Assembly: GCA_016182295.1 (NCBI GenBank)
Contig: JACOXP010000005.1
Coordinates: 4,926-68,925, forward strand
DNA length: 64,000 bases
Reading direction: 5' to 3'
DNA from: Candidatus Harrisonbacteria bacterium
Lineage (GTDB): Bacteria > Patescibacteriota > Minisyncoccia > UBA6257 > WO2-44-18
A program made the translations under genes and the position numbers. This document shows positions 28,918 to 57,207 of the stretch, one piece after another; positions within the stretch are counted from its first letter, which is position 1, and each line of letters opens with the position of its first letter. A model generated the notes under the pieces. That model worked only from the letters and a program-made list of their open reading frames with translations. It made no database searches and was not told the origin of the DNA.

Positions 28918-28929
28918 TGAGGTGTAATA

Positions 28930-33698: not shown

Positions 33699-33699
33699 A

Positions 33700-34947: not shown

Positions 34948-34954
34948 TAGTTAA

Positions 34955-35950
34955 TTATACCAAAGTGGTATAACGGCCGTCACCAAGACGTTTAAAATGC
35001 TTTCGGTTCTGAAGATTGATTAAAATAGTGTTTTCTTTAAAGATTCTCTGCTTCATAACTAAATTAATAACTTCCCGAGAAGAAAGCGGACCGTCCTTTT
35101 TCAAAAAGTGAGAGATAAGTTCTTTAGCGGTCCCCGCGACAACGCCAAACTCGCTTAAAGTATAGGTGCCCTTTCCAACCAAAACAAACTTTTTATCTTT
35201 GATCAGCTCGTTGTGGATAGTCGGAGCGTGGGTTTTTTTACCCCGAATTTCAGAGACTAATCTGGCGATTTCCGTAAAATGCAGAGGGCGCTTTTCTTTC
35301 TTCAAAATTAAATAGGCCCAATCTCGGGCGGTTTTCGGGTTAATTTCCGTCCATTCGGCAAGGCCAATACTGCCATAAACATTGGTAGTGATATTTTTGG
35401 AAATAGACGCGTAATTGCGGGCAACGCCGTCGCTCACCCCGGAATTTCTGGCGGCGGCTACAAAGGTGGTGGAAAAGTCGTCACGATCGGCGTTTTTTAG
35501 AACGTAGGAAACAAAAGATAAGGCTTTTTTCTTTCCATCGTCACCGATGTGCCAAAAAGCGTGAGTGTCTTTCCCGTCGTTGGCATATTGAAAAGAATCG
35601 CAGATTTCAAGTAAAAACTTAACTCGATTTTGAGCGTTAGCTCCGGCCAATTCTTCTATCAGCAAATCCTCGCGCTTGGTTCCGCCGGAATTTTTTAAAA
35701 TTTCATTGACGGCTTTTTTGAATCCGGAAAATTCATCGCCATTGGCGTTGGTTTTAGCTACTTTAATAGCGGTGGATTCGATTTGACGAATTCGTTCGCG
35801 GGTTAAGCTGTATTTTGATCCTAATTCAGCAAGGGTCAGGGATTCAGTTTTACCAAGACCATACCGCCCTTCCAAAACTTCTTTTTGACGAGAAGTCAGC
35901 CCGGTTAAGCAGGTTTTGATCAGCGAATTGATTTTGTTGTTATCCAACAT
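34955..35950 (-). CDS. DNA-binding protein with N-terminal sigma-70 region-4-like HTH and C-terminal HARE-HTH-like domain
   Basis: 331 aa; TSRQKEVLEGRYGL...TLAELGSKYSLTRERIRQIESTAI resembles sigma70 region 4; C-terminal FTEIARLV...HNELIKDKKFVLVGKGTYTLSEFG resembles the HARE-HTH of RpoE delta. Confidence 0.4.
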   Translation of the reverse strand: MLDNNKINSLIKTCLTGLTSRQKEVLEGRYGLGKTESLTLAELGSKYSLTRERIRQIESTAIKVAKTNANGDEFSGFKKAVNEILKNSGGTKREDLLIEELAGANAQNRVKFLLEICDSFQYANDGKDTHAFWHIGDDGKKKALSFVSYVLKNADRDDFSTTFVAAARNSGVSDGVARNYASISKNITTNVYGSIGLAEWTEINPKTARDWAYLILKKEKRPLHFTEIARLVSEIRGKKTHAPTIHNELIKDKKFVLVGKGTYTLSEFGVVAGTAKELISHFLKKDGPLSSREVINLVMKQRIFKENTILINLQNRKHFKRLGDGRYTTLV

Positions 35951-38073: not shown

Positions 38074-38140
38074 TAATGAATTACTGAAAAATTGCTTTTA
38101 ACTATAATATTAAAAAATGGTTTTGACAATGCGTATAAAA

Positions 38141-38172
38141 AAATGAGCCCCAAGTGGTTGTTACCACAAGGG
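38141..38172 (-). terminator. Intrinsic terminator downstream of the GC-rich islet (minus strand)
   Basis: gagcccc...ggggctc imperfect hairpin, followed on the minus strand by atttttttat. Confidence 0.45.
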
Positions 38173-38190
38173 GCTCGGTTGATGATGAGC

Positions 38191-38682
38191 TTAGCTCGCC
38201 ACACACTTATAGACGCAGAATGGCATGAGCGAGAGAATGAGCTCTCGCTTGCGCCATGCCTTGCGAGACCGAACCCGGTCTTGCGTGGAGTCGGAGCAGA
38301 ACCAGGAATCCTCCGGATACTGCTCGATTTCCTTACAGGCATGAATTTCGATTCCCGCTCCGGCTTCGCGAACGGCTTGCTGAACATCTCGCAGAGCGCG
38401 CCAAAGATGCGGTTTGGCGGCTACGACCCACAACTCGGTGAGTCCGTGTCGCTCCGCCCACCGAACGGTTCCTCGCGCGATGCGCAAAGTCGGCGGTGGA
38501 TTTCCGGGATCTTCTTGCGTGTACTCCACTTGAATACTTTGCTCGACGTGAATATCGAGCTGGGTGTACACCGGAGCATTTAACTCCTGCGCCTTCTTCG
38601 CAACGATTTCGGCGATACGCCGATTGGAGCGAATCGTCCACGGCGCTCCAAAAGCGAACGCGACAATACCCGGGATTTTCAA
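38191..38682 (-). CDS. Hypothetical Rossmann-like protein, possibly nucleoside 2-deoxyribosyltransferase-like; encoded in GC-rich foreign DNA
   Basis: 163 aa; the N-terminus IVAFAFGAPWTIRSNRRI resembles the FGAGWF.DRQN start of N-deoxyribosyltransferases (from memory). Local GC is about 55-60% versus about 40% in the flanks. Confidence 0.3.
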   Translation of the reverse strand: MKIPGIVAFAFGAPWTIRSNRRIAEIVAKKAQELNAPVYTQLDIHVEQSIQVEYTQEDPGNPPPTLRIARGTVRWAERHGLTELWVVAAKPHLWRALRDVQQAVREAGAGIEIHACKEIEQYPEDSWFCSDSTQDRVRSRKAWRKRELILSLMPFCVYKCVAS

Positions 38683-38883
38683 GCTTCACCTCCTAATGTA
38701 TTGGGTTAGAAAAGAGCCGATTCTTGACTGCCGAAATCGTAACATATATCCTCCATTTTGTAAAGGGATAACAAAAATTAAAAAAACCCGCCAGAGCTCC
38801 GAAAGGAGATGGCGGGTCAGTGATATCCGAGGTTCAGATCCCGAATCCAGGTTCGTCCCAGGCGTCGAAGATGTTTTTCCTCG

Positions 38884-39519
38884 TTATTGATTGGCGGGAT
38901 CACAGTTGTGACGCTCGATGTTGTGGCCGTTCTTATCAAATACTTCCGTAAACGACCCGCCATCGACTGAATAGCCGTAACCACCCTGATACCAGCCAAA
39001 AGTGGCGGAGACAGCCCCACACTGATTGCAGCGCTCCAACCGTTCCAAGATTGTCTGGGTATGATATTCTCTCGGGTCACCCTTGATAATTTTATCCACG
39101 GCTTGTTTAATCTCTGGTTCAAGCGTCGTGATTACCGGTACACATTCTGTGAAGGCGTTGTGCGCTTCGATGGCCTTGAGTTTTAGTACTCCTGCCGCTT
39201 CTTCTCCACAGTTGATGATCTCCATCTTTTGTACACGTGGAAGATGGAACACTGAACCGATTGTCTCACCGTGATACTTTTCAAGGCAAAACGCGGCGAT
39301 CTCCGCGCGATAGGCAAGGGATTCTTCCGTATCTCCCGCGAGCAAGCCCCATGCCTTACCTTGATCCTCAACTCGTTTGGCGTTTCTCGCATAACGACGT
39401 TCGTCGCCGCGAAGTCGTTCTGCCTCGATGAGTAGTGCTTCGAATCTTTTGTCCATTGCGACCCCCTTTTCAATTGTTTTGGTGCTGATTTTGGCGAGCG
39501 AATCAGGTGAAAAACCCAA
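38884..39519 (-). CDS. Hypothetical Cys-containing protein encoded in GC-rich foreign DNA
   Basis: 211 aa; five Cys including CNQCG and HNCDP; no recognisable family; same high-GC codon usage as its neighbour. Confidence 0.3.
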   Translation of the reverse strand: MGFSPDSLAKISTKTIEKGVAMDKRFEALLIEAERLRGDERRYARNAKRVEDQGKAWGLLAGDTEESLAYRAEIAAFCLEKYHGETIGSVFHLPRVQKMEIINCGEEAAGVLKLKAIEAHNAFTECVPVITTLEPEIKQAVDKIIKGDPREYHTQTILERLERCNQCGAVSATFGWYQGGYGYSVDGGSFTEVFDKNGHNIERHNCDPANQ

Positions 39520-40835: not shown

Positions 40836-41759
40836 TTACTCTAATACTATAACAGTTTTGCTCTTACTCTGCAATTCAATCCGGCAAAAATTCATTGCCA
40901 ACAGTAATTGATAGAGCAGAACCGCCAGAGCGATTGCCAACCAATTAATAATAATTAACAAAAATTTAGCCATTAAGAAAATCAAAAACCCAACGCCTAT
41001 TAAAGTCAGATTTCTCGCAAAAGGCGTTAAGGCAAGCAATCTTCCGACAGTGGCGCGGTAAAAAATATCCAATAAACTATCGCTGGTTTTCGCGGGTACA
41101 CCGGTCAAGTTTCCAAAAACTTCGCTAAGACGCGAGGCCGATTCCGAAATAAATTCATTTTTAGTGGCTTGCGAAGCGTTAGCCAGCTCTTCTGGAAGAA
41201 GCGCCGCGGCAATTTCAGTTATTGATTTTTGAATTGAAAACCCGGGAATATAACCGGCCGCGATTGGCTCCGCCGGTTTAATTATTATGGAAAGAGTTTC
41301 TTTGACTGACGTTGGATCGCTTAAATTAAAAGACCCGAGATAGGCGATGATCGCGAAAAGAGCAATTGCGGAAGAAGCGGGACCTAAAATAGCGAGACCA
41401 GTTTTGGTAAATTTTATTTCCAAACTATTTTTTAACTCAAGACGGCCTCGATAATATCCCCACAAAAGAAGAATCGAAAAAATGCTCATAGCGGTTATGG
41501 AAACTGTTGAAAATGGCGCGCCCGAGGAAACACCCACCGCTATAGCGGAAAAGATAATAATTAAAAATTTCGGAAAGAAAATATCCAATAATAAAGTTTG
41601 AATAAGAAAAATACTTAGAAATAAAGCTCCGGCCAAAGCCAAAAATATTAAAGAAATTAAACTGCCGTCAGCGACAAAGTTCCTAAAAGCTAATCCAAAA
41701 ATAATCGCGGCGATTATCGAAACCGCTCCCAAAATGATTGTTTTAAGGTCTCGGCTCAT
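40836..41759 (-). CDS. Polytopic membrane protein (hypothetical), inserted between dnaK and dnaJ
   Basis: About 307 aa from the internal Met ([13 protein letters not shown]...). The longer six-frame ORF would overlap the dnaK 3' end by about 100 nt. Confidence 0.4.
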
Positions 41760-43587
41760 TATTATTTTTGTGCATGGTCTGGCCGATTTTTTGGATCTCT
41801 GCTGATAAATCGGCCGCGGCGGCGCGAATCGCCGCCAAATCCGCTCCATCTTTTACCGCTTTAAGAGCTTCGATTTTTTTAGTAACCGTTTCTTTTACGT
41901 CGGCAGGCGCTTTATCACCAGCGTCCTTCAAAGATTTTTCCGAAACGTAAACAAGATTTTCGGCGTTGTTTCGCGCTTCCGCGAGATCTTTCTTCTGCTT
42001 GTCTTCGTTGGCGAATTTTGCCGCCTCGGATTTTAAGCGCTCAATTTCTTCTTTAGACAAAGAGGTGGTAGCCTCGATTTTAACCGATTGTGACTTTCCG
42101 GTAGTTTTGTCTTTGGCGGAAACATTAAGAATGCCGTTAGCGTCAATATCGAAAGTAACCTCAACCTGCGGCGTTCCCCGCGGAGCCGGCGGAATGCCGT
42201 CTAAAATGAAACGAGCGAGGGTTTTATTATCAGTCGCCATTGGGCGCTCACCTTGCAAAATATGAATTTCCACAGATGGCTGATTGTCTGAAGCGGTGGA
42301 AAAAACTTGGCTTTTAGCGGTGGGGACGGTGGTGTTTTTTTCGATAATTTTAGTGAAAACACCGCCGAGAGTTTCAAGACCGAGAGAAAGCGGGGTTACG
42401 TCCAGCAAAAGCACGTCTTTGACGTCTCCCTGGAGAATACCCGCCTGAATCGCCGCTCCCATCGCTACCACTTCGTCCGGGTTTAGGTTTTTATGAGGTT
42501 CTTTGCCGAAATACTTTTTTACCGCTTCTTGAATCGCCGGCATCCTGGTTTGACCGCCAACTAATACAATTTCGTTAATGTCAGAAGGAGGGAACTTTGC
42601 TTCTCGAATTGTTTGGCCAAGAATTTCGACGGACCGATCTATTAACTCGCGCACTAATTCTTCAAGCTTCGCTCGGGAAAGTTTCATCAGAAAATGTTTG
42701 GGACCAGAAGCGTCGGAACTGACATAGGGCAGGTTTATCTCGGTTTCAAAAGCGCCGGAAAGTTCGTGCTTCGCCTTTTCCGCCGCCTCCTTCAAGCGTT
42801 GAAGCGCCAAAGGGTCTTTGGCAAGATCAATCCCCGACTCTTTTTTATATTCGTTAACCAGATATTCAATAATTTTTTTATCAAAATCATCGCCGCCAAG
42901 ATGAGTATCGCCGCCGGTGGCTTTAACTTCTACCGTGTCGTCCCCAACTTCCAAGACGGAAACGTCAAACGTGCCTCCGCCAAGATCATAGACAACGATT
43001 CGCTCATCCTTCTTTTTATTTAGTCCGTAGGCAAGCGCGGCCGCTGTTGGCTCGTTTAAAATGCGGCGCACTTTAAGACCGGCGATTTCACCGGCGTTTT
43101 TAGTCGCCTGCCGCTGGCTGTCGTCAAAATAAGCCGGCACGGTAATGACCGCTTCCTCAATCTTTTCTCCTAATTTTGCCTCGGCGTCCGCTTTTAGCTT
43201 AGCTAAAACCATTGCTGAAATTTCTTCCGGCTTGTACCAGCGAGCTTGCCCTGAGCTCGTCGAGGGGTCTCCCATTTTCACTTCTACCCCGCCGCTTTCG
43301 GCCGCGCGGATTTCGTAAGGAAGCCAATTCTTATCGTGCTGAACTTCCGGATCGGTAAATTTCCGGCCAATCAAACGCTTCACGGAAAAAATGGTGTTCT
43401 TGGGATTTGTTATCGCCTGACGTTTCGCCAGAAGACCGACTAACCGCTCACCGGACTTGCTGATTGCCGCTATCGAAGGCGTAACTCTGGATCCTTCGGC
43501 GTTTTCTAAAATGCGAGGCCCGCCCGTTTCCGTAACGGCCATTTCTGAATATGTAGTTCCTAAATCTATGCCAATTATTTTGCTCAT
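41743..43587 (-). CDS. dnaK: Chaperone DnaK (Hsp70)
   Basis: 614 aa; [28 protein letters not shown] signatures. Confidence 0.95.
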
Positions 43588-43596
43588 TGCGTTTTT

Positions 43597-44061
43597 TTAT
43601 AAATTTTTAACTTTTGACCCTTTAGATATTTTAACACGACTTGGTCTTAAAACTCTTCCATTCAAGGCGTAACCAGCCAAAACTTCTTCTAAAATAACGT
43701 TTTGGGGCTGATCCGATTCAATCTCCTCAACGGATTCATGGTAAAGAGGGTCGAAGGTTTGGCCTTCGGAAATGGTAATTTTTTCTAAACCCTGCTTTTT
43801 CAAAATTCCTTCCAGCTGACTCTTAATCGCTAAAATACCAGCATCCTTGTTAGTTTTTTCAAACTCCGCCCAACTATCTAAAACCGGCAGAAATTCCAGT
43901 AAAAGGCCGGCGTTGGCGAATTTAACAAACTCCTCCAGACGTCTATTCTCGTCTTTTTGGTAGTTAATGAAATCCGCCTTCGCTCTTTTGAGTTCGTTAA
44001 GGTATTTGTCAGCAAGATTTTCTTCTGCCATTGAAGAATATTTTAAAAACTTTTTATACAA
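43597..44061 (-). CDS. grpE: Nucleotide exchange factor GrpE
   Basis: 154 aa; position upstream of dnaK; coiled-coil N-terminus and C-terminal beta domain. Confidence 0.8.
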   Translation of the reverse strand: MYKKFLKYSSMAEENLADKYLNELKRAKADFINYQKDENRRLEEFVKFANAGLLLEFLPVLDSWAEFEKTNKDAGILAIKSQLEGILKKQGLEKITISEGQTFDPLYHESVEEIESDQPQNVILEEVLAGYALNGRVLRPSRVKISKGSKVKNL

Positions 44062-44098
44062 TTGTCAACGACGACGCTTTCCGGTCTCTCGGACAACT

Positions 44099-44123
44099 AA
44101 AAAGCCCCACTAACGTGTGGGGC
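44099..44123 (-). terminator. Intrinsic terminator after the beta-rich secreted protein gene (minus strand)
   Basis: gccccac-loop-gtggggc hairpin with a T-run on the minus strand (A-run 44099-44103 on plus). Confidence 0.5.
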
Positions 44124-44141: not shown

Positions 44142-44930
44142 CTATTTCAAGCTAATGGATAATCCAATGCCGATCATCAATCGGCTTTCTTCCTCAACCT
44201 GCTGGTAGTAATTCAGAGTTGAAAGAAGAGCAACTTGATTCCAAAGCGGATAGGTTGCTTCCGCGCGGAGGCCAAGGCGGCGATTTTCTGAACTTATTTG
44301 GACATACGGCTCCAGATCCAGTCGGAAATCCCCGCACCTGAATTTAGCTTCACAGCTAAATTCATAATTGGCCGTGTCTTCCCCCCCGATAAAATAACCT
44401 CGGGGGAAATACCGATCTTTGACCTCGATTGGATCAGTGTTGTTTAAAAACAATTTTGATCCGAAAGCAAGATCGATACCGAATTTCTCAACGCCAAGCT
44501 TTGCGCAACGCCACTCCGCGAAGAGCCAGTCCTGAAATCGGCCATTTTCGCCCTTGGTCATCAGATCGTCAGCCGGCGTCCGTTTGTCGGCGTTATGCCA
44601 GCTGTGATGACCCAAGCCGACTGACCAAGTTTCGATAACCGCCAGATCGAGAATGGCAAACGCGCCGGCGCGGGATACCTTGTTGTCATTCGACGCCCAA
44701 ATATAAGGTTCCAGATTGAGCTTCAGCCAATCCGTGAACTTCACATCGGCATCGAGCGCGACTCGGTAATCCGCCGACTCATCGTGATTTTTGTAAACTA
44801 ACCGGATATATTCCGGTTCGTTGTTTATCACGAAGCGTTCGATTTTCAAATCGCCGGAGATTTTCCAGTCCTGAGCGCGGGCAACGGCCGAGAAAAGAAA
44901 GCAGAAAAAAACCACCGGTAAGTTTCGCAT
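44142..44930 (-). CDS. Secreted beta-strand-rich protein (porin/beta-barrel-like), hypothetical
   Basis: 262 aa; cleavable-looking signal peptide (VFFCFLFSAVARAQD); alternating hydrophobic patterns and many Tyr/Trp/Gly; GC above the local average. Confidence 0.35.
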   Translation of the reverse strand: MRNLPVVFFCFLFSAVARAQDWKISGDLKIERFVINNEPEYIRLVYKNHDESADYRVALDADVKFTDWLKLNLEPYIWASNDNKVSRAGAFAILDLAVIETWSVGLGHHSWHNADKRTPADDLMTKGENGRFQDWLFAEWRCAKLGVEKFGIDLAFGSKLFLNNTDPIEVKDRYFPRGYFIGGEDTANYEFSCEAKFRCGDFRLDLEPYVQISSENRRLGLRAEATYPLWNQVALLSTLNYYQQVEEESRLMIGIGLSISLK

Positions 44931-44999
44931 TTTCCATCTCCTTATTAAAAATGTTTAAGGTACTGGCAAACTGTACCTTATTTTTGCTAAAAAGTCAAG

Positions 45000-45893
45000 T
45001 TAATCCCCAAAGTCAGCGCAGAGGACCCTAATACTGGGCGTAGCGGTTGAGCAACCTACACTATTTCCAGTATTTACTCCAGTACCTGACCATCCGCCAA
45101 GACAGATAGCGGTAAGAGAAAGCGCTTGACAAGCCGCCGTTCCGCCTTGACCAAGACCGGCCGATGATCCTACATTAGTAAAAATTGAAACTGATCCATT
45201 AACACCACTGATTTTTCTGACAACTAATTGATTAGCTCCGTTTCCGGCAATTTCCAACGCGCCAATCATTGGAGTTACGCTGACCGGGCCAATACCTATA
45301 AAACCGGAGCTAGTTATTGTAAATGGTAACAATCCGTTGCTACCGAACTGCACCTTTCCCGCTTCTAGATTAACAATTTTGGTGTCATTTCTTTCCTGAA
45401 GTATTCTTAAACCATCATTACCGGTAGAACCGGATATGGTATTTGTAACTCTTACTCCAGCCGTATCGCTATCCGTAGAATTTATTGTTAGTTTATCCGT
45501 GGGCAACCCCCCAATTCCTACACTAGCCCCATCTACAGTTAACGCGTCATCGCCCATTAATATAATACGGGCATCATAATCAGAAGAATTATCGTTGCTA
45601 AAATCTACATAAGGAGTACCGCCGGAACCGCCTAGCTCAATGGACGCTCCCTGATCTATTTTTAAACTACCTCGAGTGCCCCATCGTGTGTCTCCGCCAA
45701 CATGAAGTTTGGCATCCGGGATAGCAATTCCGATTCCAACATTACCCGCGGAAACTGTAATTGCTCCGGATCCTCCGGGTGGATTCTGGTTGGGATTCGT
45801 CCATCCAAAAACAAGATCCGTTATCAGCCAACCGGCAAAAAACAAAGCTACGATGTTTGTCCAGAAAAGAGGTTTTTTAATCAGATTTGTCAT
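45000..45893 (-). CDS. Membrane-anchored Gly/Ser/Thr-rich fibre-like surface protein (paralog A)
   Basis: 297 aa; N-terminal anchor KKPLFWTNIVALFFAGWLI; repeated motif GNVGIGIAIPDAKLHVGG reminiscent of tail-fibre/beta-helix repeats. Confidence 0.4.
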   Translation of the reverse strand: MTNLIKKPLFWTNIVALFFAGWLITDLVFGWTNPNQNPPGGSGAITVSAGNVGIGIAIPDAKLHVGGDTRWGTRGSLKIDQGASIELGGSGGTPYVDFSNDNSSDYDARIILMGDDALTVDGASVGIGGLPTDKLTINSTDSDTAGVRVTNTISGSTGNDGLRILQERNDTKIVNLEAGKVQFGSNGLLPFTITSSGFIGIGPVSVTPMIGALEIAGNGANQLVVRKISGVNGSVSIFTNVGSSAGLGQGGTAACQALSLTAICLGGWSGTGVNTGNSVGCSTATPSIRVLCADFGD

Positions 45894-45905
45894 AAGTTAA
45901 TTAAA

Positions 45906-46904
45906 TTAATTACAGAACACAAAACTTCCTGGCCCGCCAGGACCAACAAACCACTGATTTGACGTCAACTCACTAGAAGAATCCTCCTGTAGTATGGTAA
46001 CAGCACTAGTTGAACGCATAAGTATTGCGACGCCATCACTTGAACCATTTACACCAAAGTCAATAAAGTCTCCAAAAGAATCAGGTTCGCTTGCCCAGCC
46101 CACAACACGATTATCCGAGGAACGTTGGTATATGTTAGCCATCGCATACCCCGTGCCGGTATTGGGTACAAACACCGCTGTACAAATAGAATCTAAACAT
46201 TGAGAAGGGACAGCAACAGCGCTATTAGCAGCGGCCGCAACAATCACGCACGCTGAAGTATTATCAACACCGTCAGATATTCCTGGTGGAACATTTTTTA
46301 ACCTTGTCCACTCGAGAGGGTTACTTACCAAGTTGATTGTGCCCGGAGTATTAATTGAAACGCCTTGGCGCCACAGATCTCCGGCGTTAATATTACCAGT
46401 AACATCAAGCTTTGTCCCAGGAGCAGTGTTGCCAATTCCCACATTAGTTCCATTATCGAAAATTTGAGAATTCCCAAGGGTGGTGGCGGCAGTAAATTTG
46501 GAAATGAAATTCGTCGTGCCGCTGCCGCCAATAGCGCCTCCGCTTGGGGAGGCGCAATCTAGAGAAGAAGAATTAAGGCCCGTAACAAACTGGCCGCCAG
46601 CGCAGTCGGACGGCAAACTAGTCAAACGTGGCCATGGCACAGAACCGGCAACCAGGGCTCCGGTCCAACTAACGTTCCCGCTAATTTTTAACTTCGCGGA
46701 CGCGTCCGGTAAAGCCCCGATTCCTACATTACGGCTAGCGTCTACGGTAATAGCGGCGGATCCGTCCGGCGGTGGTACTACCGGATTGTTCCACCCCAAA
46801 ACTAAACTTGCTATCAGCCAACCGGCAAAAACCAAAGCAAAAATATTTGTCCAAAAAAGCGGTTTTTTTAATAACTGAATCATACTATAATCAAAGTATA
46901 GCAA
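45906..46904 (-). CDS. Membrane-anchored fibre-like surface protein (paralog B)
   Basis: 332 aa; same N-terminal anchor motif and NVGIGNTAPGTKLDV repeat; C-terminal part Cys-containing and divergent from paralog A. Confidence 0.4.
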   Translation of the reverse strand: MLYFDYSMIQLLKKPLFWTNIFALVFAGWLIASLVLGWNNPVVPPPDGSAAITVDASRNVGIGALPDASAKLKISGNVSWTGALVAGSVPWPRLTSLPSDCAGGQFVTGLNSSSLDCASPSGGAIGGSGTTNFISKFTAATTLGNSQIFDNGTNVGIGNTAPGTKLDVTGNINAGDLWRQGVSINTPGTINLVSNPLEWTRLKNVPPGISDGVDNTSACVIVAAAANSAVAVPSQCLDSICTAVFVPNTGTGYAMANIYQRSSDNRVVGWASEPDSFGDFIDFGVNGSSDGVAILMRSTSAVTILQEDSSSELTSNQWFVGPGGPGSFVFCN

Positions 46905-46942
46905 TTCTAGATTCTAGTTTCTAGTTTCTGGGTTTTGCTGGT

Positions 46943-47851
46943 ATGTGGATAACTAAATCACCGAAAATAACCTGGATCGACATTCTGAAACCCACAAAAG
47001 CCGACATCGATTTTCTCAAACAACAGCACAATTTTCACCCGATCATCCTTGACGAACTGCTCCACCTTTCCAATCGCTCCCGAGTGGAGTTCTATCAAGA
47101 TTATCTTTACCTCACTTACCATTTTCCTATTTACGACAGATCAATAAAAACTTCCCGCCGGGCCGAAGTTGACTTTTTAATTACTAAAGAAAAAATAATT
47201 ACCGTCCATTACGAAGATCTTGAAGCGATCGATACTTTCGCGCGCGCCATCAACAATAACGCGCATTTTAAAGCCAGAGCGACGCAAGACAGCGCCCGCG
47301 TTGTTTATTATATTATTCAGGAAATAATCCAATTTTCTTTGCATCAACTTCGCCACGTTGAAGATAATATAAGAAAAATCTCCCAGGAAATCTTTAAAGG
47401 ATACGAAACTCAACTTTTAGAAAAAATTTCTTACGCCAAACGGGAAATCTTGGATTTTAATGTTACCAGCGCGCCGCAAAAAATCTTATTGGAATCTTTG
47501 CTGGATGTTGGCAAGAAATTTTGGGGTGAAGAAGAACGAATTTATTTTGCCGATTTGGTCGGTGATTATTCCAAACTTACCCAACAAGTAGAAAATTATC
47601 GCGCTACCATTGAAGCGCTGGAAAGCACCAATGGCCAGCTATTAAACGCCAAAACCAACAGAGTAATGCAGCGTTTCACCATTCTCGCTTTTCTGACCTT
47701 CCCGATATTTCTATTCGTGTCGCTGGCCGAAGTAGAATTTATCAACACTTTTATCGCGGAAAATCCACTGCGCTTTTGGTCTATCTTGATCGGTGTAATT
47801 GTATTAGTATTTTCTTTAATAGCGATATTTAAGAAAAAGGGGTGGCTTTAA
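46943..47851 (+). CDS. CorA-like divalent cation transporter (no canonical GMN motif)
   Basis: 302 aa; CorA-like cytoplasmic domain and two C-terminal TM helices, but the loop reads ...LAEVEF... instead of YGMNF. Confidence 0.6.
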   Translation: MWITKSPKITWIDILKPTKADIDFLKQQHNFHPIILDELLHLSNRSRVEFYQDYLYLTYHFPIYDRSIKTSRRAEVDFLITKEKIITVHYEDLEAIDTFARAINNNAHFKARATQDSARVVYYIIQEIIQFSLHQLRHVEDNIRKISQEIFKGYETQLLEKISYAKREILDFNVTSAPQKILLESLLDVGKKFWGEEERIYFADLVGDYSKLTQQVENYRATIEALESTNGQLLNAKTNRVMQRFTILAFLTFPIFLFVSLAEVEFINTFIAENPLRFWSILIGVIVLVFSLIAIFKKKGWL

Positions 47852-54110: not shown

Positions 54111-55349
54111 TTATTCTACAATAATCGTTCCTTTTGCTGATGGACCAAGGTGATTGTGGTAGTTAATAGTGCCCGATTCGGTAAAGGTAAACTTATAAGC
54201 CCCGCCTGGTTCTAAACGTCCTGATTCAAAAGCTGGGAAACTGGTGTGCACCGGGTGCGGATCGGAAGCGATCCACATTGGCCCGGGACCATTGTTTACA
54301 AAAGTAAGCTCATCCCCAATTTCCACTCTCATGGTTGTTGGAGTAAAAACACCGCTTTTAAAAGTAACTAGGTTATCCTCTACGCTCTCTTCTTTCTGAC
54401 CCTCTCCGTTTAAATGCAATTCCGCTTTCACGGCAACTTCAACTTTTGCTTCTTGGGCTTCGCGGTGAGCTTCCTGAAAGATTCGAAATGCTTCGGCGTA
54501 AGCCCCGGTTTCCATTTTTAACTTTCCTTCCGCGACTAAATCCTCCGCTTTTTTCAATTTCGTTTCAGCGGCGGATTTTACCTCGGCGCTTACTTCTGAT
54601 TTAGCGATAAACTCGCGAACCTCAGAAATTTTCTTCTCGGTCGCTTTCAATTTCCCCTCAGCGGCTGTTTGGGATTCTGGATTAGAAAGCTTGGATTCCA
54701 CTTCCGCTCTTATACCGGCGGTTTTAACAGCGTGGGTTTTAATCTTTTCCGCAAGCAGTTCAACTTCACCATTTTCGGTTTCGGAAATCCTTGCTAAAAT
54801 CTTCGCGTGAGCGTTGATCGCGGTCTCCAGGCCGGAAATTACTTCCGCGGCCGCTTGAATTTTATCATTAGCTTCAAGTTCGGCGATTCTTTCTTCAACA
54901 CGCTTGGCAAACTCCTCGAACCTTTCTTCCAGACGCTCCCGTTTTTCCATATCAAGCTCGCCTTTCGCCGCTAATTTTTCGGCTTCTTCAAGGCGGCGTT
55001 CGGCTCGGCGCGCTTCCCATTGGGCTTTTGCTTCGGCGGAAACAGACAAGGCCGATCTTACTTCCTCGTTAATATTCACTTTAATGTTATAAAGAACGTC
55101 GCCGGGCAGGGCGTTTTCAGCCGCTAACGACACTCCGCCTCCGACCAGCGCGCTAATTACTAATACTGCTGCGATTATTGGCATAAATTTTAAATAATAA
55201 TTATTATAATTAAACGACTTTTGTAATACCTGACGACTGGTATCTTTTAATCTTACAATGCTTTCTAAGTTTTGACGAATATGGTTTTTCTCCACAGCCT
55301 CCAAATGGATATTTTTCGCTTTATTAAAAAATTTTTCTAGATTATTCAT
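54111..55349 (-). CDS. Putative anti-sigma factor: TM + DUF5667-like coiled-coil region + C-terminal cupredoxin-like domain
   Basis: 412 aa; LPGDVLY motif after the TM; long Ala/Glu/Lys-rich helical region; C-terminal beta domain ...GGAYKFTFTESGTINYHNH...GTIIVE. Overlaps the ECF sigma gene by 8 nt. Confidence 0.45.
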   Translation of the reverse strand: MNNLEKFFNKAKNIHLEAVEKNHIRQNLESIVRLKDTSRQVLQKSFNYNNYYLKFMPIIAAVLVISALVGGGVSLAAENALPGDVLYNIKVNINEEVRSALSVSAEAKAQWEARRAERRLEEAEKLAAKGELDMEKRERLEERFEEFAKRVEERIAELEANDKIQAAAEVISGLETAINAHAKILARISETENGEVELLAEKIKTHAVKTAGIRAEVESKLSNPESQTAAEGKLKATEKKISEVREFIAKSEVSAEVKSAAETKLKKAEDLVAEGKLKMETGAYAEAFRIFQEAHREAQEAKVEVAVKAELHLNGEGQKEESVEDNLVTFKSGVFTPTTMRVEIGDELTFVNNGPGPMWIASDPHPVHTSFPAFESGRLEPGGAYKFTFTESGTINYHNHLGPSAKGTIIVE

Positions 55350-55848
55350 TGAATATTTCTTTAATTTGTTTTAACCCTCGGTGCAATCTTACGGAAATGT
55401 TATTCTCGCTTTCTCCGGTTATTTCAGAAATCTCTTTCGGAGTCAGATCGTCAATATATTTCATCAAAACAACGTCTCGATATTTCGGATCCAATTTTTC
55501 GATAATTTTTAATATTCCCGCGGCTTCCGTATTCGCGATTATTCGTGAATCCGCGTTGGCGCTCATAACATCAAAACCGTTTTCTTCCCGCATTTTATCA
55601 AGCGAAACGGGTTTTTTACGGCGCGATTCATCAATGATTAAATTGTTGGCCACTTTATATAAAAAGGCTCTGGCGTTGCTGAATTTTCCTCCACGAGCGG
55701 CGTATTCCAGAGTTTTGGTAAAAGTTTCCTGAGTTAACTCTTTAGCCCGTTCCCGATCGAAAATTCTAAAATAGCAATGCCGAAAAATGGCATCCGCAAA
55801 TTCATCGTAAACCTTCATAAATTGAGTGTTTGCGTCCAATGGGTCCAT
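55342..55848 (-). CDS. ECF-type RNA polymerase sigma factor (sigma-70 family)
   Basis: 168 aa; region 2 (DANTQFMKVYDEF...FRHCY) and region 4 (LTPKEISEITGESENNISVRLHRGLKQI). Confidence 0.85.
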   Translation of the reverse strand: MDPLDANTQFMKVYDEFADAIFRHCYFRIFDRERAKELTQETFTKTLEYAARGGKFSNARAFLYKVANNLIIDESRRKKPVSLDKMREENGFDVMSANADSRIIANTEAAGILKIIEKLDPKYRDVVLMKYIDDLTPKEISEITGESENNISVRLHRGLKQIKEIFNE

Positions 55849-55935
55849 CCTATCTGACGTAATAATTAACCTGATCTTACGTCGTAAATCAAGGCATTAA
55901 ATATAACCCATATGGGCAATAAATTATACCCCGTA

Positions 55936-55964
55936 TTGACATAAAAATTCTGTTGTATTATAAT
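55936..55964 (+). promoter_or_regulatory. Consensus sigma70 promoter TTGACA-N17-TATAAT, 7 nt upstream of the ATG (probable leaderless mRNA)
   Basis: -35 at 55936-55941, -10 at 55959-55964, ATG at 55972; no Shine-Dalgarno sequence between. Confidence 0.5.
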
Positions 55965-55971
55965 ATCTCCT

Positions 55972-57207
55972 ATGAAAAAAGTTGTTATCTGGGGCGTGTT
56001 TTTGGGCTTTGTTGCGGGGAATTTAGTTTTTATTGGTATTTCTGAAGCTAATTTTGGCTTTGGAAATCCTCCTACCTGGGTCAGTAACCAGCCCACTTAC
56101 TTTACAGTTCGCAGCGGCGACACTCTGCAATTCGAAGTTAAAGCCGTTGATTCTAATAATAAAACAATTACTTACGGAGTTGATCGGCTTCCGTTTGGAG
56201 CTACCCTTGAAAAATCCAGTGGCGCTTTTAAATGGACTCCCTCCACCGGCCAAATCGGTAACCATTATATGCAATTTAACGCCACCAATGGCGAGGGTTT
56301 CACTTACATTACCATCAGCATTTCGGTAATTAAGGCGTCTCCTGATACCAGCTCAACTCAGGTTACTATCACTCCAAGCGTTACTCCGGTCCCCAATTAC
56401 AACAGCGCGCCGTTTTTCGTCGGATTTAACCCGTCAACTATCGGGCAGGTTAATCAGCTTTATACTTTTGACGTAAACGCCAGTGACGTTAACAACGATT
56501 TTCTTACTTATCTTTTGCTGACTTCTCCGAACGGAATGTTTATAAATCGAACCACTGGCTATATCGCCTGGGTTCCTGTCACGGAACAAGTCGGTTTGAA
56601 CACTGTTACCGTCGGGGTTTCTGATGGGAAAACCACTACTTCCCAAAGTTATCAAGTTCAGGTTTCCGCCGCGGAAATTTTACCGCCTCCCCCGGTCGTA
56701 ACTATTACACCCCCCGTTTCTTCTCCGATTAATGAACGGCCAGCTGAAACTAAATTAATAATTTCCAATTTAAAAATTGAAAGCGGTGAAAACGGCGAAG
56801 TCATTGTTTCTTGGACAACTAATATTCCGTCTCGCGAGCGAGTAATTTGGGGCAAAGAATCTCAAACGGATCGCGCCAATAATATCTATAATTACCAAAA
56901 CGCCACCCAGGAATCTACTTCTCTCGCCACCGAACATCGAGTAAACATCGGCGCGATCGATCAGGAAATAATTTATTATCTTCGCGCGGTAGCTAAAACT
57001 GATCGGCAAATCGCCATCAGTCGGGAAATCGCTTTTGTTCAGTTGGATGAAGGCCGCGTCGTGGGAAATTTTGGAGTCGCCAATCTTTTCGCCTTTCTTG
57101 GAGATCTAATCGCCAGTCCGCTTTTCCTTTTCTTGCTGGTTCTGGCTTTGATAATAATGGTCTATCTCCAGAAACGGAAAATTAAACGCTTAAACTCTCC
57201 CCTCTAA
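55972..57207 (+). CDS. Secreted, C-terminally anchored protein with tandem Ig-like (putative Ig / cadherin-like) domains
   Basis: 411 aa; signal peptide; repeated ~90-aa beta-rich modules (YTFDVNASD..., TVTVGVSDGKTT...); C-terminal TM followed by basic residues. Confidence 0.45.
   Translation: MKKVVIWGVFLGFVAGNLVFIGISEANFGFGNPPTWVSNQPTYFTVRSGDTLQFEVKAVDSNNKTITYGVDRLPFGATLEKSSGAFKWTPSTGQIGNHYMQFNATNGEGFTYITISISVIKASPDTSSTQVTITPSVTPVPNYNSAPFFVGFNPSTIGQVNQLYTFDVNASDVNNDFLTYLLLTSPNGMFINRTTGYIAWVPVTEQVGLNTVTVGVSDGKTTTSQSYQVQVSAAEILPPPPVVTITPPVSSPINERPAETKLIISNLKIESGENGEVIVSWTTNIPSRERVIWGKESQTDRANNIYNYQNATQESTSLATEHRVNIGAIDQEIIYYLRAVAKTDRQIAISREIAFVQLDEGRVVGNFGVANLFAFLGDLIASPLFLFLLVLALIIMVYLQKRKIKRLNSPL

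What the first reader, a model, noticed from the sequence alone, without database searches (positions are those of the whole stretch)
44142..46904. Higher-GC cluster encoding a secreted beta-rich (porin-like) protein and two fibre-like surface paralogs
These three consecutive minus-strand genes have visibly higher GC (about 50%) than their surroundings. They encode:
- A 262-aa signal-peptide protein with alternating hydrophobic patterns and abundant aromatic/Gly residues, like a beta-barrel or beta-sandwich. This is unexpected if the organism has a monoderm-like envelope.
- Two membrane-anchored Gly/Ser/Thr-rich paralogs. Both share an N-terminal KKPLFWTNI.AL.FAGWLI anchor and repeated N-V-G-I-G-x-x-x-P-x-A-K-L motifs typical of phage tail-fibre and beta-helix surface proteins. 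Their C-terminal regions are divergent.

Possible roles are adhesion to a host cell (these organisms are presumed episymbionts) or a phage-derived receptor-binding module. No reverse transcriptase or template repeat (DGR) is present nearby.
Basis: partly seen in the sequence, partly recalled or inferred. Interest (0 to 1): 0.5.

Follow-up and report, generated by a model that had tools for sequence, protein, structure and literature searches.

The report
Phospholipase-like barrel beside variable surface fibres
In an ultra-small (CPR) bacterium of a group regarded as having no outer membrane, one of these three genes encodes a remote relative of the Gram-negative outer-membrane phospholipase A. 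It happens to lie next to two fast-diverging surface-fibre genes, and the three are neither a GC island nor a functional unit.

Summary
The three minus-strand genes exist as described, in a Candidatus Harrisonbacteria (Parcubacteria/CPR) genome. The "about 50% GC cluster" does not hold: the cluster is 46.5% GC against 43.7% for the window, and 6% of equal-length windows are as high.

They are two unrelated things.

1. ORF297 and ORF325 belong to a lineage-specific family. It has a conserved N-terminal hydrophobic helix, tail-fibre-type NVGIG...KL modules and unalignable Cys-containing C-termini. In six other loci with both flanks, 1-3 copies fill the same slot between corA and grpE-dnaK. They are resident variable surface genes, not a phage insert and not DGR targets.

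2. ORF262 belongs to a tiny Patescibacteria-only family (25 cluster representatives among 1.84 billion).
- AlphaFold gives a confident 12-stranded barrel (pLDDT 88).
- Profile-profile comparison with an OMPLA family profile gives 85% probability.
- That alignment places invariant H108 and S110 and near-invariant D134 on OMPLA's catalytic His142, Ser144 and Asn156.
- In 11 other genomes the gene lies between IleRS and ArgRS. Only here is it beside grpE.

Likely role: an exported lipid acyl-hydrolase barrel. Where it resides in a monoderm-type cell is unknown.

The parts
44142..44930 (-). ORF262 (HYT03_00745): Sec-exported member of a Patescibacteria-only family, predicted 12-stranded OMPLA-like beta-barrel
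44874..44930 (-). Signal peptide of ORF262 (aa 1-19, MRNLPVVFFCFLFSAVARA, A-x-A cleavage motif before QD)
   Evidence: Read directly from the sequence. The family consensus is ...AxAQE. SignalP could not be run.
44586..44618 (-). Invariant motif G105-x-G-H108-H-S110-W-H112-N113-x-D115 at the loop-side end of strand 5. H108 and S110 align with OMPLA catalytic His142 and Ser144.
   Evidence: Invariant columns in the 18-sequence alignment A2. hhalign alignments. Same strand parity as the hydrophobic face.
44529..44531 (-). D134 codon on strand 6, candidate third member of the triad. It aligns with OMPLA Asn156.
   Evidence: Asp in 17 of 18 family members and Asn in P0160. Aligned to N156 in both profile-profile runs. 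Shares parity with the hydrophobic face L136/A138/W140.
44104..44123 (-). Terminator-like GC-rich hairpin plus T-run, 19 nt after the ORF262 stop codon
   Evidence: Consensus scan: 7-bp stem with 6 GC pairs, followed by TTTTT. A consensus match only.
44970..44998 (-). Promoter-like site (TTGACT-17-TACAGT) in the 69-nt spacer before ORF262, which also holds an AGGAG ribosome-binding site
   Evidence: Consensus scan, 9 of 12. Sequence read. A weak match only.
45000..45893 (-). ORF297 (HYT03_00750): N-terminally anchored Gly/Ser/Thr-rich fibre-like surface protein, paralog 1
   Evidence: It has 4 Cys, all in the C-terminal 45 residues, and 31 homologs, most covering only the N-terminal 25-50%.
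45906..46883 (-). ORF325 (HYT03_00755; 332 aa if read from TTG 46904): fibre-like surface protein, paralog 2
   Evidence: PHROG tail fibre phrog_9942, E 1.7e-4. The AF2 model is poor apart from helix 8-32 and the NVGIG hairpins.
46668..46883 (-). Conserved N-terminal module of ORF325 (KKPLFWTN, a hydrophobic helix of about 25 residues, GWNNP-PPP-GSAAI, first NVGIG...KL unit). The equivalent module in ORF297 lies at 45684-45893.
   Evidence: 64% identity between the paralogs. 50-70% identity to orthologous loci. Alignment A3. AF2 helix 8-32 with pLDDT about 90.
46389..46541 (-). Central module of ORF325 (aa 115-165, GGSGTTNFISKFTAATTLGNSQIFDNGTNVGIGNTAPGTKLDV), shared with tail-fibre-like proteins
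   Evidence: Covered by about 130 of 153 collected homologs. Short hits reach 60-80% identity. Some partners carry Peptidase_S74 or Phage_tail_C. P0043 lies in a phage-like contig.
46895..46923 (-). Promoter-like site (TAGAAA-17-TG-TATACT) about 12 nt before ATG 46883, in the short divergent spacer shared with corA
   Evidence: Consensus scan, 9 of 12. A weak match only.
46943..47851 (+). corA, the left boundary of the conserved variable slot
   Evidence: Pfam CorA, E 8.6e-42. The same neighbour is seen in L005, L008, L031, L033, L034, L035 and L037.
43597..44031 (-). grpE (144-aa version), first gene of grpE-dnaK-X-dnaJ and the right boundary of the slot
   Evidence: A near-consensus promoter lies at 44068-44040.

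Best explanation
The region holds two independent things that are adjacent only in this genome.

**(A) 45000-46883: a tandem pair of variable surface-fibre genes.**
- They belong to a Harrisonbacteria-lineage family of cell-surface fibre proteins.
- Shown:
  - They have a strongly conserved N-terminal 70 aa. This comprises a KKPLFWTN motif, a hydrophobic helix of about 25 residues, GW(T/N)NP plus a Pro-rich linker, and a first NVGIG...KL unit.
  - Further tail-fibre-type modules follow.
  - The C-termini contain Cys and cannot be aligned between copies.
  - In every related locus with enough flanking sequence, 1-3 such genes fill the same slot between corA and grpE-dnaK-X-dnaJ.
- Inferred:
  - The helix anchors the protein in the cytoplasmic membrane, or serves as a long Sec signal cleaved at VxG|W.
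  - The Gly/Ser/Thr-rich part forms an extended, probably oligomeric, disulfide-stabilised fibre.
  - The variable tip binds a partner-cell or environmental ligand.
  - Diversity arises by duplication and divergence at this slot, not by a DGR.

**(B) 44142-44930: a remote homolog of outer-membrane phospholipase A (OMPLA/PldA).**
- It is a separately transcribed gene, with its own ribosome-binding site, a promoter-like site and a terminator-like hairpin.
- Shown:
  - It has a Sec signal peptide.
  - It has a confidently predicted 12-stranded antiparallel barrel, with short turns at one end and three long conserved loops at the other.
  - It shows specific profile-profile similarity to OMPLA over strands 2-12.
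  - Invariant H108 and S110 (strand 5) and near-invariant D134 (strand 6) fall on OMPLA's His142, Ser144 and Asn156.
  - All three share strand parity with the hydrophobic face of the barrel.
- Inferred:
  - After export, the barrel sits in, or inserts into, a lipid layer and acts as a Ser-His-Asp acyl hydrolase on membrane lipids, releasing lysolipids and fatty acids.
  - That lipid layer could be an unrecognised outer layer of the cell or the envelope of a partner cell.
  - Such an activity would suit organisms that cannot make their own lipids.
- The gene's ancestral position is between IleRS and ArgRS. In this genome it has been moved or copied into the spacer between the last fibre gene and grpE.
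For: **Fibres**
- The paralogs are 64% identical over 74 aa and unrelated after that.
- Synteny is corA | 1-3 anchor-fibre genes | grpE dnaK in L005, L008, L031, L033 and L035, and corA plus the first fibre gene in L034.
- Alignment A3 shows the conserved head and the unalignable tails.
- Composition and Cys counts fit an extracellular fibre.
- Shared modules link the family to PHROG tail fibre, to partners with Peptidase_S74 or Phage_tail_C, and to a protein in a phage-like contig.
- There is no relative in IMG/VR, no RT and no TR/VR repeat.

**Barrel**
- AF2 gives pLDDT 88.2 and pTM 0.83.
- Among the 50 Foldseek matches listed, the best query-normalised TM-score is OMPLA's (0.47).
- hhalign of family profile A2 against an OMPLA profile gives 84.8% probability (E 6.6e-6, 184 columns) and 78.5% in an independent run.
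- Controls all score far lower (except YdiY). The real score is 44.3.
  - Reversed profile: 21.8.
  - 60 column shuffles: at most 21.4.
  - 60 block shuffles: at most 30.1.
  - The OMPLA profile against seven other E. coli OMPs: at most 18.8.
  - YdiY/DUF481: 11.2.
- The single-sequence version scores 32.5, against 11-27 for other OMPs and a maximum of 30.1 in 150 shuffles.
- Face analysis and residue make-up of the two faces support a lipid-facing belt.
- The family is confined to Patescibacteria MAGs.
- Its position is fixed as IleRS|gene|ArgRS|SmpB in 11 other genomes.
- The arrangement in this window is reproduced in two independent read-run assemblies.
- A terminator-like and a promoter-like site separate ORF262 from grpE.

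**Literature context**
- CPR lack lipid synthesis, are enriched in lysolipids, and phospholipase A has been named as a possible source (PMC7242380).
- No lipid uptake or breakdown mechanism has been identified in Patescibacteria (PMC11665869).
Against: - No Pfam PLA1 hit at any threshold for any of 18 family members, and no HMMER hit to PDB sequences. Homology therefore rests on profile-profile comparison at 78-85% probability, plus fold.
- The OMPLA "SNG" oxyanion motif and its Ca-site residues are not conserved. The family has S-W-H-N-x-D instead.
The spatial proximity of S110, H108 and D134, and their position on the outside of the barrel, are inferred only from strand parity.
- CPR are regarded as monoderm (10.1101/2021.05.31.446380), and no outer-membrane biogenesis gene lies in the window. 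There is thus no known membrane or assembly machine for such a barrel.
- The fibre model is poor (pLDDT 59), so the fibre fold, oligomeric state and anchoring versus cleavage are untested.
- No expression or localisation data exist.
Confidence: 0.55

Rival explanations
1. One reading: the three genes form one horizontally acquired, higher-GC surface module, phage-derived or an island. The barrel and the fibres would work together in host adhesion or receptor binding.
For: - The three genes are adjacent, co-oriented and all exported.
- ORF262 interrupts otherwise conserved synteny and has the highest GC3 in the window.
- The fibre modules resemble phage tail-fibre modules.
Against: - Cluster GC is unremarkable: 6% of equal-length windows are as high. 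The two parts deviate in opposite directions in GC3.
- The fibre genes are resident at this slot in at least six related loci.
- The barrel family is inherited at another fixed locus in 11 genomes and is never next to fibre genes there. This includes the genome that supplies L005 and L022.
- Raised GC3 is a family trait in other genomes too.
- There are no integrase, phage or mobile-element genes nearby.
- The anchor family has no relative in IMG/VR.
- ORF262 has its own promoter-like and terminator-like sites.
Confidence: 0.05
2. ORF262 is a passive 12-stranded channel of the Tsx, NanC or KdgM type in some outer layer, with no enzymatic activity. The conserved His/Ser/Asp residues would serve substrate or metal binding or gating.
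For: - The polar face is rich in charged residues, as in a water-filled lumen.
- The motif is His-rich.
Against: - hhalign shows no sequence-profile relation to Tsx or NanC (probability 0.2-1.7%, with only the signal peptides aligned).
- H108, S110, H112 and D134 share parity with the hydrophobic face, not the polar one.
- The invariant residues sit in loops L1, L3 and L4 and at the strand tips, which in porins are the most variable parts.
- The catalytic positions of OMPLA are exactly the conserved ones.
Confidence: 0.2
3. ORF262 is not membrane-embedded. It would be a secreted soluble barrel whose hydrophobic face lines an internal cavity, acting as a lipid or hydrophobic-ligand carrier or a metal-binding protein. 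This would fit a cell with no outer membrane.
For: - The organism belongs to a clade treated as monoderm.
- An alternating pattern alone cannot tell inside from outside.
- Aromatic enrichment at strand ends is only modest: Trp+Tyr 12% against 7%.
- CPR need to import lipids.
Against: - Side chains alone cannot fill a round 12-stranded barrel. This is a geometric inference.
- The polar face carries the invariant glycines, which is typical of lumen-facing positions.
- Homology to OMPLA implies the transmembrane orientation.
Confidence: 0.12
4. The two fibre paralogs are subunits of a pilus-like or pseudopilin filament. The argument is their conserved N-terminal hydrophobic helix and variable C-terminal domain. 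They would not be membrane-anchored fibres or adhesins.
For: - The architecture resembles type IV pilins: a conserved N-terminal helix and a variable tail with paired Cys.
- CPR are known to rely on type IV pili. This is established knowledge.
Against: - There is no class III signal. No Gly precedes the helix, there is no F/M-T-L-I-E, and there is no Glu at position +5. The conserved motif is KKPLFWTN.
- No prepilin-type NCBIfam or Pfam hit was found.
- No pilus-assembly genes lie nearby.
- The internal modules are of tail-fibre type.
Confidence: 0.05
5. The C-terminal diversity of the paralogs is generated by a diversity-generating retroelement located elsewhere in the genome.
For: DGRs are common in CPR and often target surface proteins (papers listed). 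Only 64 kb of the genome was visible.
Against: - No RT was found among about 47 ORFs.
- No repeat of at least 40 nt matches either C-terminus anywhere in the window.
- The differences between copies are wholesale, with different lengths and no alignable sequence, not adenine-directed substitutions within a conserved scaffold.
Confidence: 0.03

Closest known systems
Outer-membrane phospholipase A (OMPLA / PldA; Pfam PLA1 PF02253; PDB 1qd5, 1fw2) of diderm bacteria
   Same: - Size of about 240-270 aa after a Sec signal.
- Profile-profile probability of 78-85% over strands 2-12.
- An H-x-S pair at the loop-side end of strand 5, and an Asp or Asn early in strand 6 at the positions of His142, Ser144 and Asn156.
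- These residues lie on the hydrophobic-face parity.
   Different: - No HMMER-level similarity to PLA1, and about 13% identity in the hhalign alignment.
- The Asn of the triad is Asp in 17 of 18 members.
- The S-N-G oxyanion motif and the P-x-S Ca-site motif are replaced by an invariant S-W-H-N-x-D.
- The roughly 30-residue N-terminal extension of OMPLA is absent.
- The family is found only in Patescibacteria, a clade regarded as lacking an outer membrane.
- Dimerisation and Ca2+ dependence are unknown.
Other outer-membrane barrel lipid hydrolases: PagL (lipid A 3-O-deacylase, 8 strands, His-Ser-Glu) and LpxR (12 strands)
   Different: PagL has 8 strands. LpxR uses a different set of catalytic residues.
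12-stranded specific channels: Tsx, NanC and KdgM
   Different: No sequence-profile relation (probability 1.7% or less). In these channels the conserved residues line the lumen, not the outer rim.
"Tail fiber domain-containing proteins" of Patescibacteria and of phages (N-terminal TM helix or phage adaptor, NVGIG...KL modules, C-terminal Peptidase_S74 intramolecular chaperone, PF13884)
   Same: - ORF297 and ORF325 share the NVGIG-x3-P-x2-KL units.
- They share the GSGTTNxxxKFT...LGNSxIFDNGTNVGIG module and the TPYVDFxND...DYDARI module.
- Many CPR relatives also start with a TM helix followed by (A/G)W(T/N)(E/N)P and a Pro-rich linker.
   Different: - Neither paralog has a Peptidase_S74 or Phage_tail_C domain.
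- The KKPLFWTN head is confined to a small set of proteins and is absent from IMG/VR.
- The genes are chromosomal, lying in a conserved housekeeping slot.
DGR variable proteins of CPR bacteria
   Same: Variable C-termini on exported surface proteins of an episymbiont-type organism.
   Different: There is no RT and no TR/VR pair in 64 kb. Variation is by whole-domain replacement and copy number, not targeted substitutions.

Membership tests
OMPLA / PLA1 (PF02253) | Match to the Pfam PLA1 model at its gathering score | tested here: not met
   No PLA1 hit was found. ORF262 was scanned at E up to 1 and all 18 family members at E up to 10. There was no PDB sequence hit either.
OMPLA / PLA1 (PF02253) | Remote homology detectable by profile-profile comparison | tested here: met
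   hhalign gives 84.8% probability (E 6.6e-6, 184 columns) and 78.5%. Decoy, shuffle and other-OMP controls scored 30.1 or less, against 44.3.
OMPLA / PLA1 (PF02253) | 12-stranded antiparallel beta-barrel | tested here: met
OMPLA / PLA1 (PF02253) | Catalytic His142 and Ser144 (H-x-S) on strand 5 | tested here: met
   H108 and S110 are invariant in 18 of 18 sequences. They align to H142 and S144 in three independent alignments.
OMPLA / PLA1 (PF02253) | Asn156 on strand 6 completing the triad | tested here: inconclusive
   The aligned residue is D134, which is Asp in 17 of 18 members and Asn in P0160. The single-sequence alignment instead placed N156 on G130. Geometry was not checked.
OMPLA / PLA1 (PF02253) | S-N-G oxyanion motif and Ca2+ ligands (Ser152 and others); Ca2+-dependent dimerisation | tested here: not met
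   N165, G166 and S172 (precursor numbering) are invariant in the OMPLA alignment A5. The ORF262 family has W-H at the N-G positions and no conserved Ser at the S152 position. Dimerisation cannot be tested here.
OMPLA / PLA1 (PF02253) | Resides in the outer membrane of a diderm, assembled by BAM | not testable with these tools
   CPR are classed as monoderm in the literature. No Omp85, Lpt or Lpx genes were found among the window ORFs, but the rest of the genome was not available.
General porin / specific channel (Tsx, NanC, KdgM, OmpG) | Sequence relation to a channel family; conserved residues lining the lumen | tested here: not met
   hhalign probability is 0.2-6.5%, mostly over signal peptides. 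Only sub-threshold Pfam porin hits were found, in single members. The conserved residues sit on the rim and loops.
Phage tail fibre with intramolecular chaperone (Peptidase_S74, PF13884) | C-terminal S74 chaperone domain; location in a phage structural module | tested here: not met
   Neither paralog has an S74 or Phage_tail_C domain. The neighbours are corA, cysS, dnaB, grpE and dnaK. Only the internal modules are shared.
DGR target protein | Nearby reverse transcriptase and a TR/VR repeat pair | tested here: not met
   No RVT hit among about 47 ORFs. No repeat involves the 3' parts of the genes.
Type IV pilin / pseudopilin | Class III signal peptide (G|F/M-T-L-I-E) and prepilin N-methylation domain | tested here: not met
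   The motif is absent from the sequences. There was no NCBIfam or Pfam hit.
Genomic island (recent horizontal transfer) | Deviant composition, mobility genes, break of synteny | tested here: inconclusive
   ORF262 does break the corA-fibre-grpE synteny and has the top GC3. However, high GC3 is a family trait, its identity to relatives (30-41%) is typical of the family, and there are no mobility genes. The fibre genes are resident.

The most novel reading that the evidence does not exclude
A subclade of Parcubacteria keeps a highly diverged descendant of outer-membrane phospholipase A as an exported, self-inserting barrel enzyme. It would act on the envelope of a partner cell, or on an unrecognised outer lipid layer of the CPR cell itself, to release lysolipids and fatty acids. 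That would make it the missing lipid-harvesting step of lipid-auxotrophic CPR bacteria. It would also be the first outer-membrane-type beta-barrel enzyme family native to a monoderm-type lineage.
Probability: 0.25. Interest if true: 0.85.

Novelty: new variant of a known kind. Interest (0 to 1): 0.62.

Why it matters
Patescibacteria cannot make their own membrane lipids. Field lipidomics found them enriched in lysolipids and named phospholipase A as a possible source (PMC7242380). A 2024 review states that no lipid uptake or breakdown mechanism has been identified in them (PMC11665869).

A conserved, exported family with an OMPLA-type barrel and a preserved His-Ser-(Asp/Asn) site gives a concrete, cloneable candidate for that step.

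It also bears on envelope evolution. CPR are placed in a clade that lost the outer membrane. A transmembrane-type barrel retained there should either point to an unrecognised outer lipid layer, act on another cell's membrane, or be a relic put to a new use.

The fibre slot between corA and grpE is of more ordinary interest. It is a handy marker locus for strain-level surface variation in this lineage.

All of this is computational. The enzymatic activity, the location of the barrel and its target are untested.

Tried and rejected
**Database searches on the three proteins**
- Pfam, NCBIfam and PHROGs scans gave no family for ORF262 or ORF297, and only weak tail-fibre PHROG hits for ORF325.
- HMMER against PDB sequences found nothing for ORF262 or its profile, and only chance beta-lactamase hits for ORF297.
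- The word-indexed homolog search badly under-reported the ORF262 family, finding 2 proteins. The exhaustive HMMER search was needed.

**Structure**
- AlphaFold of ORF325 with a 53-sequence alignment failed beyond the N-terminal helix and the NVGIG hairpins (pLDDT 59). I therefore ran no fold search on it.
- The afdb50 Foldseek library was not available.
- Model coordinates are not exposed, so the triad geometry and the inside/outside orientation could only be inferred from strand parity.
- Aromatic-girdle enrichment was only modest and is not decisive.

**Ideas tested and dropped**
- Phage origin of the anchor family: no relative in IMG/VR, and only one weak hit in GenBank phages.
- DGR: no RT and no TR/VR repeat.
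- GC island: not significant for the cluster as a whole.
- DUF481/YdiY, the best BFVD structural hit, as the true family: hhalign probability 0.1%.
- Other E. coli OMPs as equally good sequence matches: rejected.
- Assembly or binning chimera: rejected, because two independent run assemblies show the same gene order.
- Rfam and tRNA scans found only five tRNAs and nothing in the region.

**Literature**
- Searches found no paper linking Parcubacteria or Patescibacteria with beta-barrels or with outer-membrane phospholipase.

Full report
**What is there**

The window comes from a Candidatus Harrisonbacteria (Parcubacteria, CPR) MAG. The three proteins are identical to HYT03_00745, HYT03_00750 and HYT03_00755.

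Three minus-strand ORFs lie at 44142-44930 (262 aa), 45000-45893 (297 aa) and 45906-46904. The third most likely starts at ATG 46883, giving 325 aa, as in the public gene calls.

They lie between corA-cysS-dnaB-recR on the plus strand and grpE-dnaK-X-dnaJ on the minus strand. Assemblies of two separate sequencing runs reproduce the order corA | 325 | 297 | 262 | grpE, so this is not a binning or assembly artefact.

**Composition**

The "about 50% GC" statement is overstated.
- The three genes are 49.0%, 45.1% and 47.3% GC and the cluster is 46.5%. The window is 43.7%.
- Equal-length windows have mean 43.8%, sd 1.5% and maximum 48.5%, and 6.1% of them reach the cluster's value. dnaK alone is 48.2%.
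- The cluster is also not uniform. ORF262 has the highest third-position GC of 49 ORFs (55.9%; mean 43.6%, sd 4.5%). ORF297 has the lowest (33.2%). The paralogs owe their GC to Gly, Ala and Thr codons at positions 1 and 2.
- Relatives of ORF262 in two other genomes also exceed their neighbours in GC3. This is therefore a family trait and not a mark of recent transfer.

**The two paralogs**

*Sequence features*
- They are 64% identical over the first 74 residues (E 5e-24) and unrelated afterwards. At the DNA level the only repeat in the region is the pair of 5' ends, 116 nt at 74%.
- Each has two [NS][VI]GIG...KL units. These four are the only ones in the six-frame translation of the window.
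- They are 35% and 31% Gly+Ser+Thr, against 17.5% in the background. They are poor in charged residues (11-13% against 24%). They carry 4 and 6 cysteines outside the N-terminal helix.
- Pfam and NCBIfam find nothing. PHROGs gives a weak tail-fibre hit for ORF325 (phrog_9942, E 1.7e-4).

*Homologs fall into two layers*
- A small set shares the whole N-terminal head: KKPLFWTN, a hydrophobic helix, GW(T/N)NP, a Pro-rich linker, GSGAI and NVGIG.
- Hundreds share only internal modules. The main one is residues 115-165 of ORF325, at up to 60-80% identity.
  - Many of these partners end in Peptidase_S74 or Phage_tail_C domains.
  - One (P0043) sits in a phage-like contig, beside an endolysin-type peptidase and phage GroEL/ES.

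*Structure*
- AlphaFold gives only the N-terminal helix (residues 8-32) and small hairpins at the NVGIG units with confidence (pLDDT 59 overall). The fold of the tails is unknown.

**Where the paralogs live**

- In related genomes the same slot holds the same kind of gene. L005 has recR-dnaB-cysS-corA | three anchor-fibre genes | grpE-dnaK-308aa-dnaJ, and L008 has one. L031 has one, L033 about three, and L035 two or three. L034 shows corA followed by the first.
- The heads are 50-70% identical, but the tails differ in length and cannot be aligned.
- No relative of the anchor family was found in IMG/VR. Only one weak hit exists in GenBank phages.
- The window holds no reverse transcriptase, integrase or phage gene and no TR/VR-type repeat.
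- The paralogs are therefore resident members of a variable surface-protein slot that diversifies by duplication and tail replacement.
- It is inference that the helix anchors them, or that it is a long signal cleaved at VxG|W. It is also inference that they form oligomeric fibres and bind a partner cell.

**ORF262: family and position**

- The word-indexed search found only one relative (33% identity).
- An exhaustive HMMER search with the two-sequence profile found 25 representatives among 1.84 billion, nearly all 240-270 aa.
- Named members come from Parcubacteria, Harrisonbacteria and Azambacteria MAGs.
- A scan of 185,579 species genomes for the signature peptide returned ten loci, all from Patescibacteria MAGs.
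- In every one of these, and in the loci of P0002 and P0181, the gene lies in the arrangement IleRS(-) | gene(+) | ArgRS(-) | SmpB(+).
- One of them (L022) is from the same assembly as L005. The fibre slot of that assembly has no barrel gene.
- Family members are 29-47% identical to each other in most pairs, and the window's copy falls in the same range at 30-41%. It looks like a displaced or duplicated ordinary member, not a foreign import.
- Here it has a good Shine-Dalgarno sequence and a promoter-like site in the 69-nt spacer. A GC-rich hairpin with a T-run follows its stop codon, and a near-consensus promoter for grpE lies beyond that.

**ORF262: fold**

- With the 18-sequence alignment, AlphaFold gives pLDDT 88.2 and pTM 0.83.
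- The model has twelve long antiparallel strands. The turns after strands 2, 4, 6, 8 and 10 are short. The loops after strands 1, 5 and 7 are long.
  - The top scores are Tsx 15.8, OMPLA 15.8 (197 aligned residues), EstA 15.7, NanC 15.5, KdgM 15.4, LpxR 13.9 and PcoB 13.8.
- The 50 Foldseek matches listed are likewise membrane barrels, and OMPLA has the highest query-normalised TM-score among them (0.47). In BFVD the best match is a phage-borne DUF481 outer-membrane barrel.
- Each strand has one hydrophobic face. Its central positions are 75% aliphatic or aromatic and 7% charged or polar.
- The other face is 48% charged or polar and 10% Gly. The aromatic excess at strand ends is modest.

**ORF262: relation to OMPLA**

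*The conserved residues*
- Invariant residues are Y46, Y76, G89, G105, H108, S110, H112, N113, D115 and Y174. D134, Q133, P167 and others are nearly invariant. They cluster at the loop-side end of strands 5 and 6 and in the long loops, which are the most variable parts of porins.

*Single-sequence comparison*
- hhalign of the family profile against E. coli K-12 PldA aligned GYGHHSWHNAD with GYNHDSNGRSD. This places H108 and S110 on the catalytic His142 and Ser144 (probability 31%, score 32.5, 126 columns).
- Seven other E. coli OMPs scored 11-27, mostly over their signal peptides. Reversed decoys scored 12-19, and none of 150 shuffles reached 32.5.

*Profile-profile comparison*
- I built an OMPLA profile from E. 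coli pldA plus twelve phospholipase A genes or gene fragments. They come from Pseudomonadota, Bacteroidota and Campylobacterota, and were found in the plasmid collection by tblastn with E. coli PldA. Seven of the twelve are annotated as phospholipase A.
- Profile-profile comparison then gave 78.5% (score 44.3, 140 columns). The tool's own alignment gave 84.8% (E 6.6e-6, 184 columns, strands 2-12).
- Both alignments put H108 on His142, S110 on Ser144 and D134 on Asn156. The one family member without Asp at that column has Asn.

*Controls and strand parity*
- Controls: reversed profile 21.8; 60 column shuffles at most 21.4; 60 shuffles of 12-column blocks at most 30.1; OMPLA profile against other OMPs at most 18.8; YdiY/DUF481 11.2.
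- By strand parity, H108, S110 and H112 lie on the same face as W102, V104 and L106. D134 lies on the same face as L136, A138 and W140.
- That is the hydrophobic face. In OMPLA this face is the outside of the barrel at the outer-leaflet rim, which is where its active site lies. The OMPLA triad and its location are established knowledge (Snijder et al. 1999), not tested here.

*Differences from OMPLA*
- There is no HMMER-level match to Pfam PLA1.
- The invariant S-N-G and P-x-S of OMPLA are replaced by S-W-H-N-x-D.
- The N-terminal extension of OMPLA is missing.

**Interpretation**

I read ORF262 as a remote, functionally intact-looking homolog of OMPLA. It would be an exported 12-stranded barrel with a Ser-His-Asp(Asn) site at its rim, most likely an acyl hydrolase acting on membrane lipids.

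- Shown: export signal, predicted fold, specific profile similarity, conservation of the catalytic positions, restriction to Patescibacteria, and a fixed genomic position elsewhere.
- Inferred: the geometry of the triad, the outward orientation, the substrate, and above all the place where the barrel resides.

CPR are treated as a monoderm clade (10.1101/2021.05.31.446380). Nothing in the window points to outer-membrane biogenesis.

The idea fits what is known of CPR lipid biology. They lack lipid synthesis, their small-cell fractions are rich in lysolipids, and phospholipase A was suggested as a source (PMC7242380). A secreted phospholipase was proposed to harvest host lipids in Vampirococcus (PMC8080830). 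A 2024 review says no lipid uptake or breakdown mechanism has been identified (PMC11665869). I found no paper linking Patescibacteria to OMPLA or to beta-barrels.

**Rivals**

- A passive Tsx/NanC-type channel is not excluded by fold. It has no sequence support, however, and does not explain conserved rim residues on the hydrophobic parity.

**Verdict**

- The fibre genes are an ordinary, if neatly organised, example of variable CPR surface proteins.
- The barrel is the interesting part. It is a new, highly diverged variant of a known enzyme family in a lineage where it is not expected, and it gives a testable candidate for CPR lipid acquisition.

Noticed in passing
window 40836-41849 (-): A multi-TM protein of about 306 aa (337 aa as the longest ORF) with no Pfam hit sits between dnaK and dnaJ. 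It is also present in L005 (308 aa) and L008 (309 aa), so it is a conserved extra member of the grpE-dnaK-X-dnaJ operon in this lineage.
   Followed up: partly
window 44031-44068 (-): The longest grpE ORF (TTG 44061) contains a near-consensus promoter (TTGACA-17-TAAAAT, 44068-44040). The ATG at 44031 (144 aa) is the more likely start and is the one called in the Logan assemblies.
   Followed up: partly
window 32229-35950 (-): A VirD4/TrwB-type coupling ATPase (489 aa) lies next to a 415-aa ORF with no Pfam hit and a 331-aa protein with only a Sigma70_r4 domain, directly upstream of secDF. This may be part of a CPR type IV secretion or DNA-transfer apparatus.
   Followed up: no
window 4610-7647 (+): Two consecutive 500-aa ORFs (4610-6109 and 6106-7647) have no Pfam hit and are followed by a family-2 glycosyltransferase. 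One contains a PLFWT string like the fibre anchor, probably by chance.
   Followed up: no
window 38092-39519: ORF 38884-39519 (211 aa, no Pfam hit) has the highest GC of all ORFs (49.8%). The neighbouring kilobase (49% GC) carries two mutually antisense 163-aa ORFs of unclear status. Rfam finds no RNA there.
   Followed up: no
window 54111-57207: There are further exported or surface proteins here: a DUF5667 protein (54111-55349, also seen at the edge of L005) and a He_PIG/Big_9 Ig-domain protein (55972-57207).
   Followed up: no
window 23573-25876 (+): An amino-acid permease is fused to two universal-stress-protein (Usp) domains (767 aa).
   Followed up: no
window 28039-30264 (-): A ComEC competence channel (Competence domain, 444 aa) and a separate metallo-beta-lactamase-fold ORF (292 aa) lie side by side, as if the usual ComEC fusion were split.
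   Followed up: no
window 46883-46923 (-): The ATG of ORF325 lies only about 12 nt downstream of a -10-like TG-TATACT, and neither paralog has a visible Shine-Dalgarno sequence. ORF262, by contrast, has AGGAG. The fibre operon may be translated from a leaderless or nearly leaderless mRNA.
   Followed up: no
L001, L009-L012, L014-L023 (IleRS|gene|ArgRS loci): The IleRS of these Parcubacteria carries an inserted His_Phos_1 (histidine phosphatase) domain within the tRNA-synt_1 region, according to the precomputed Pfam hits.
   Followed up: no
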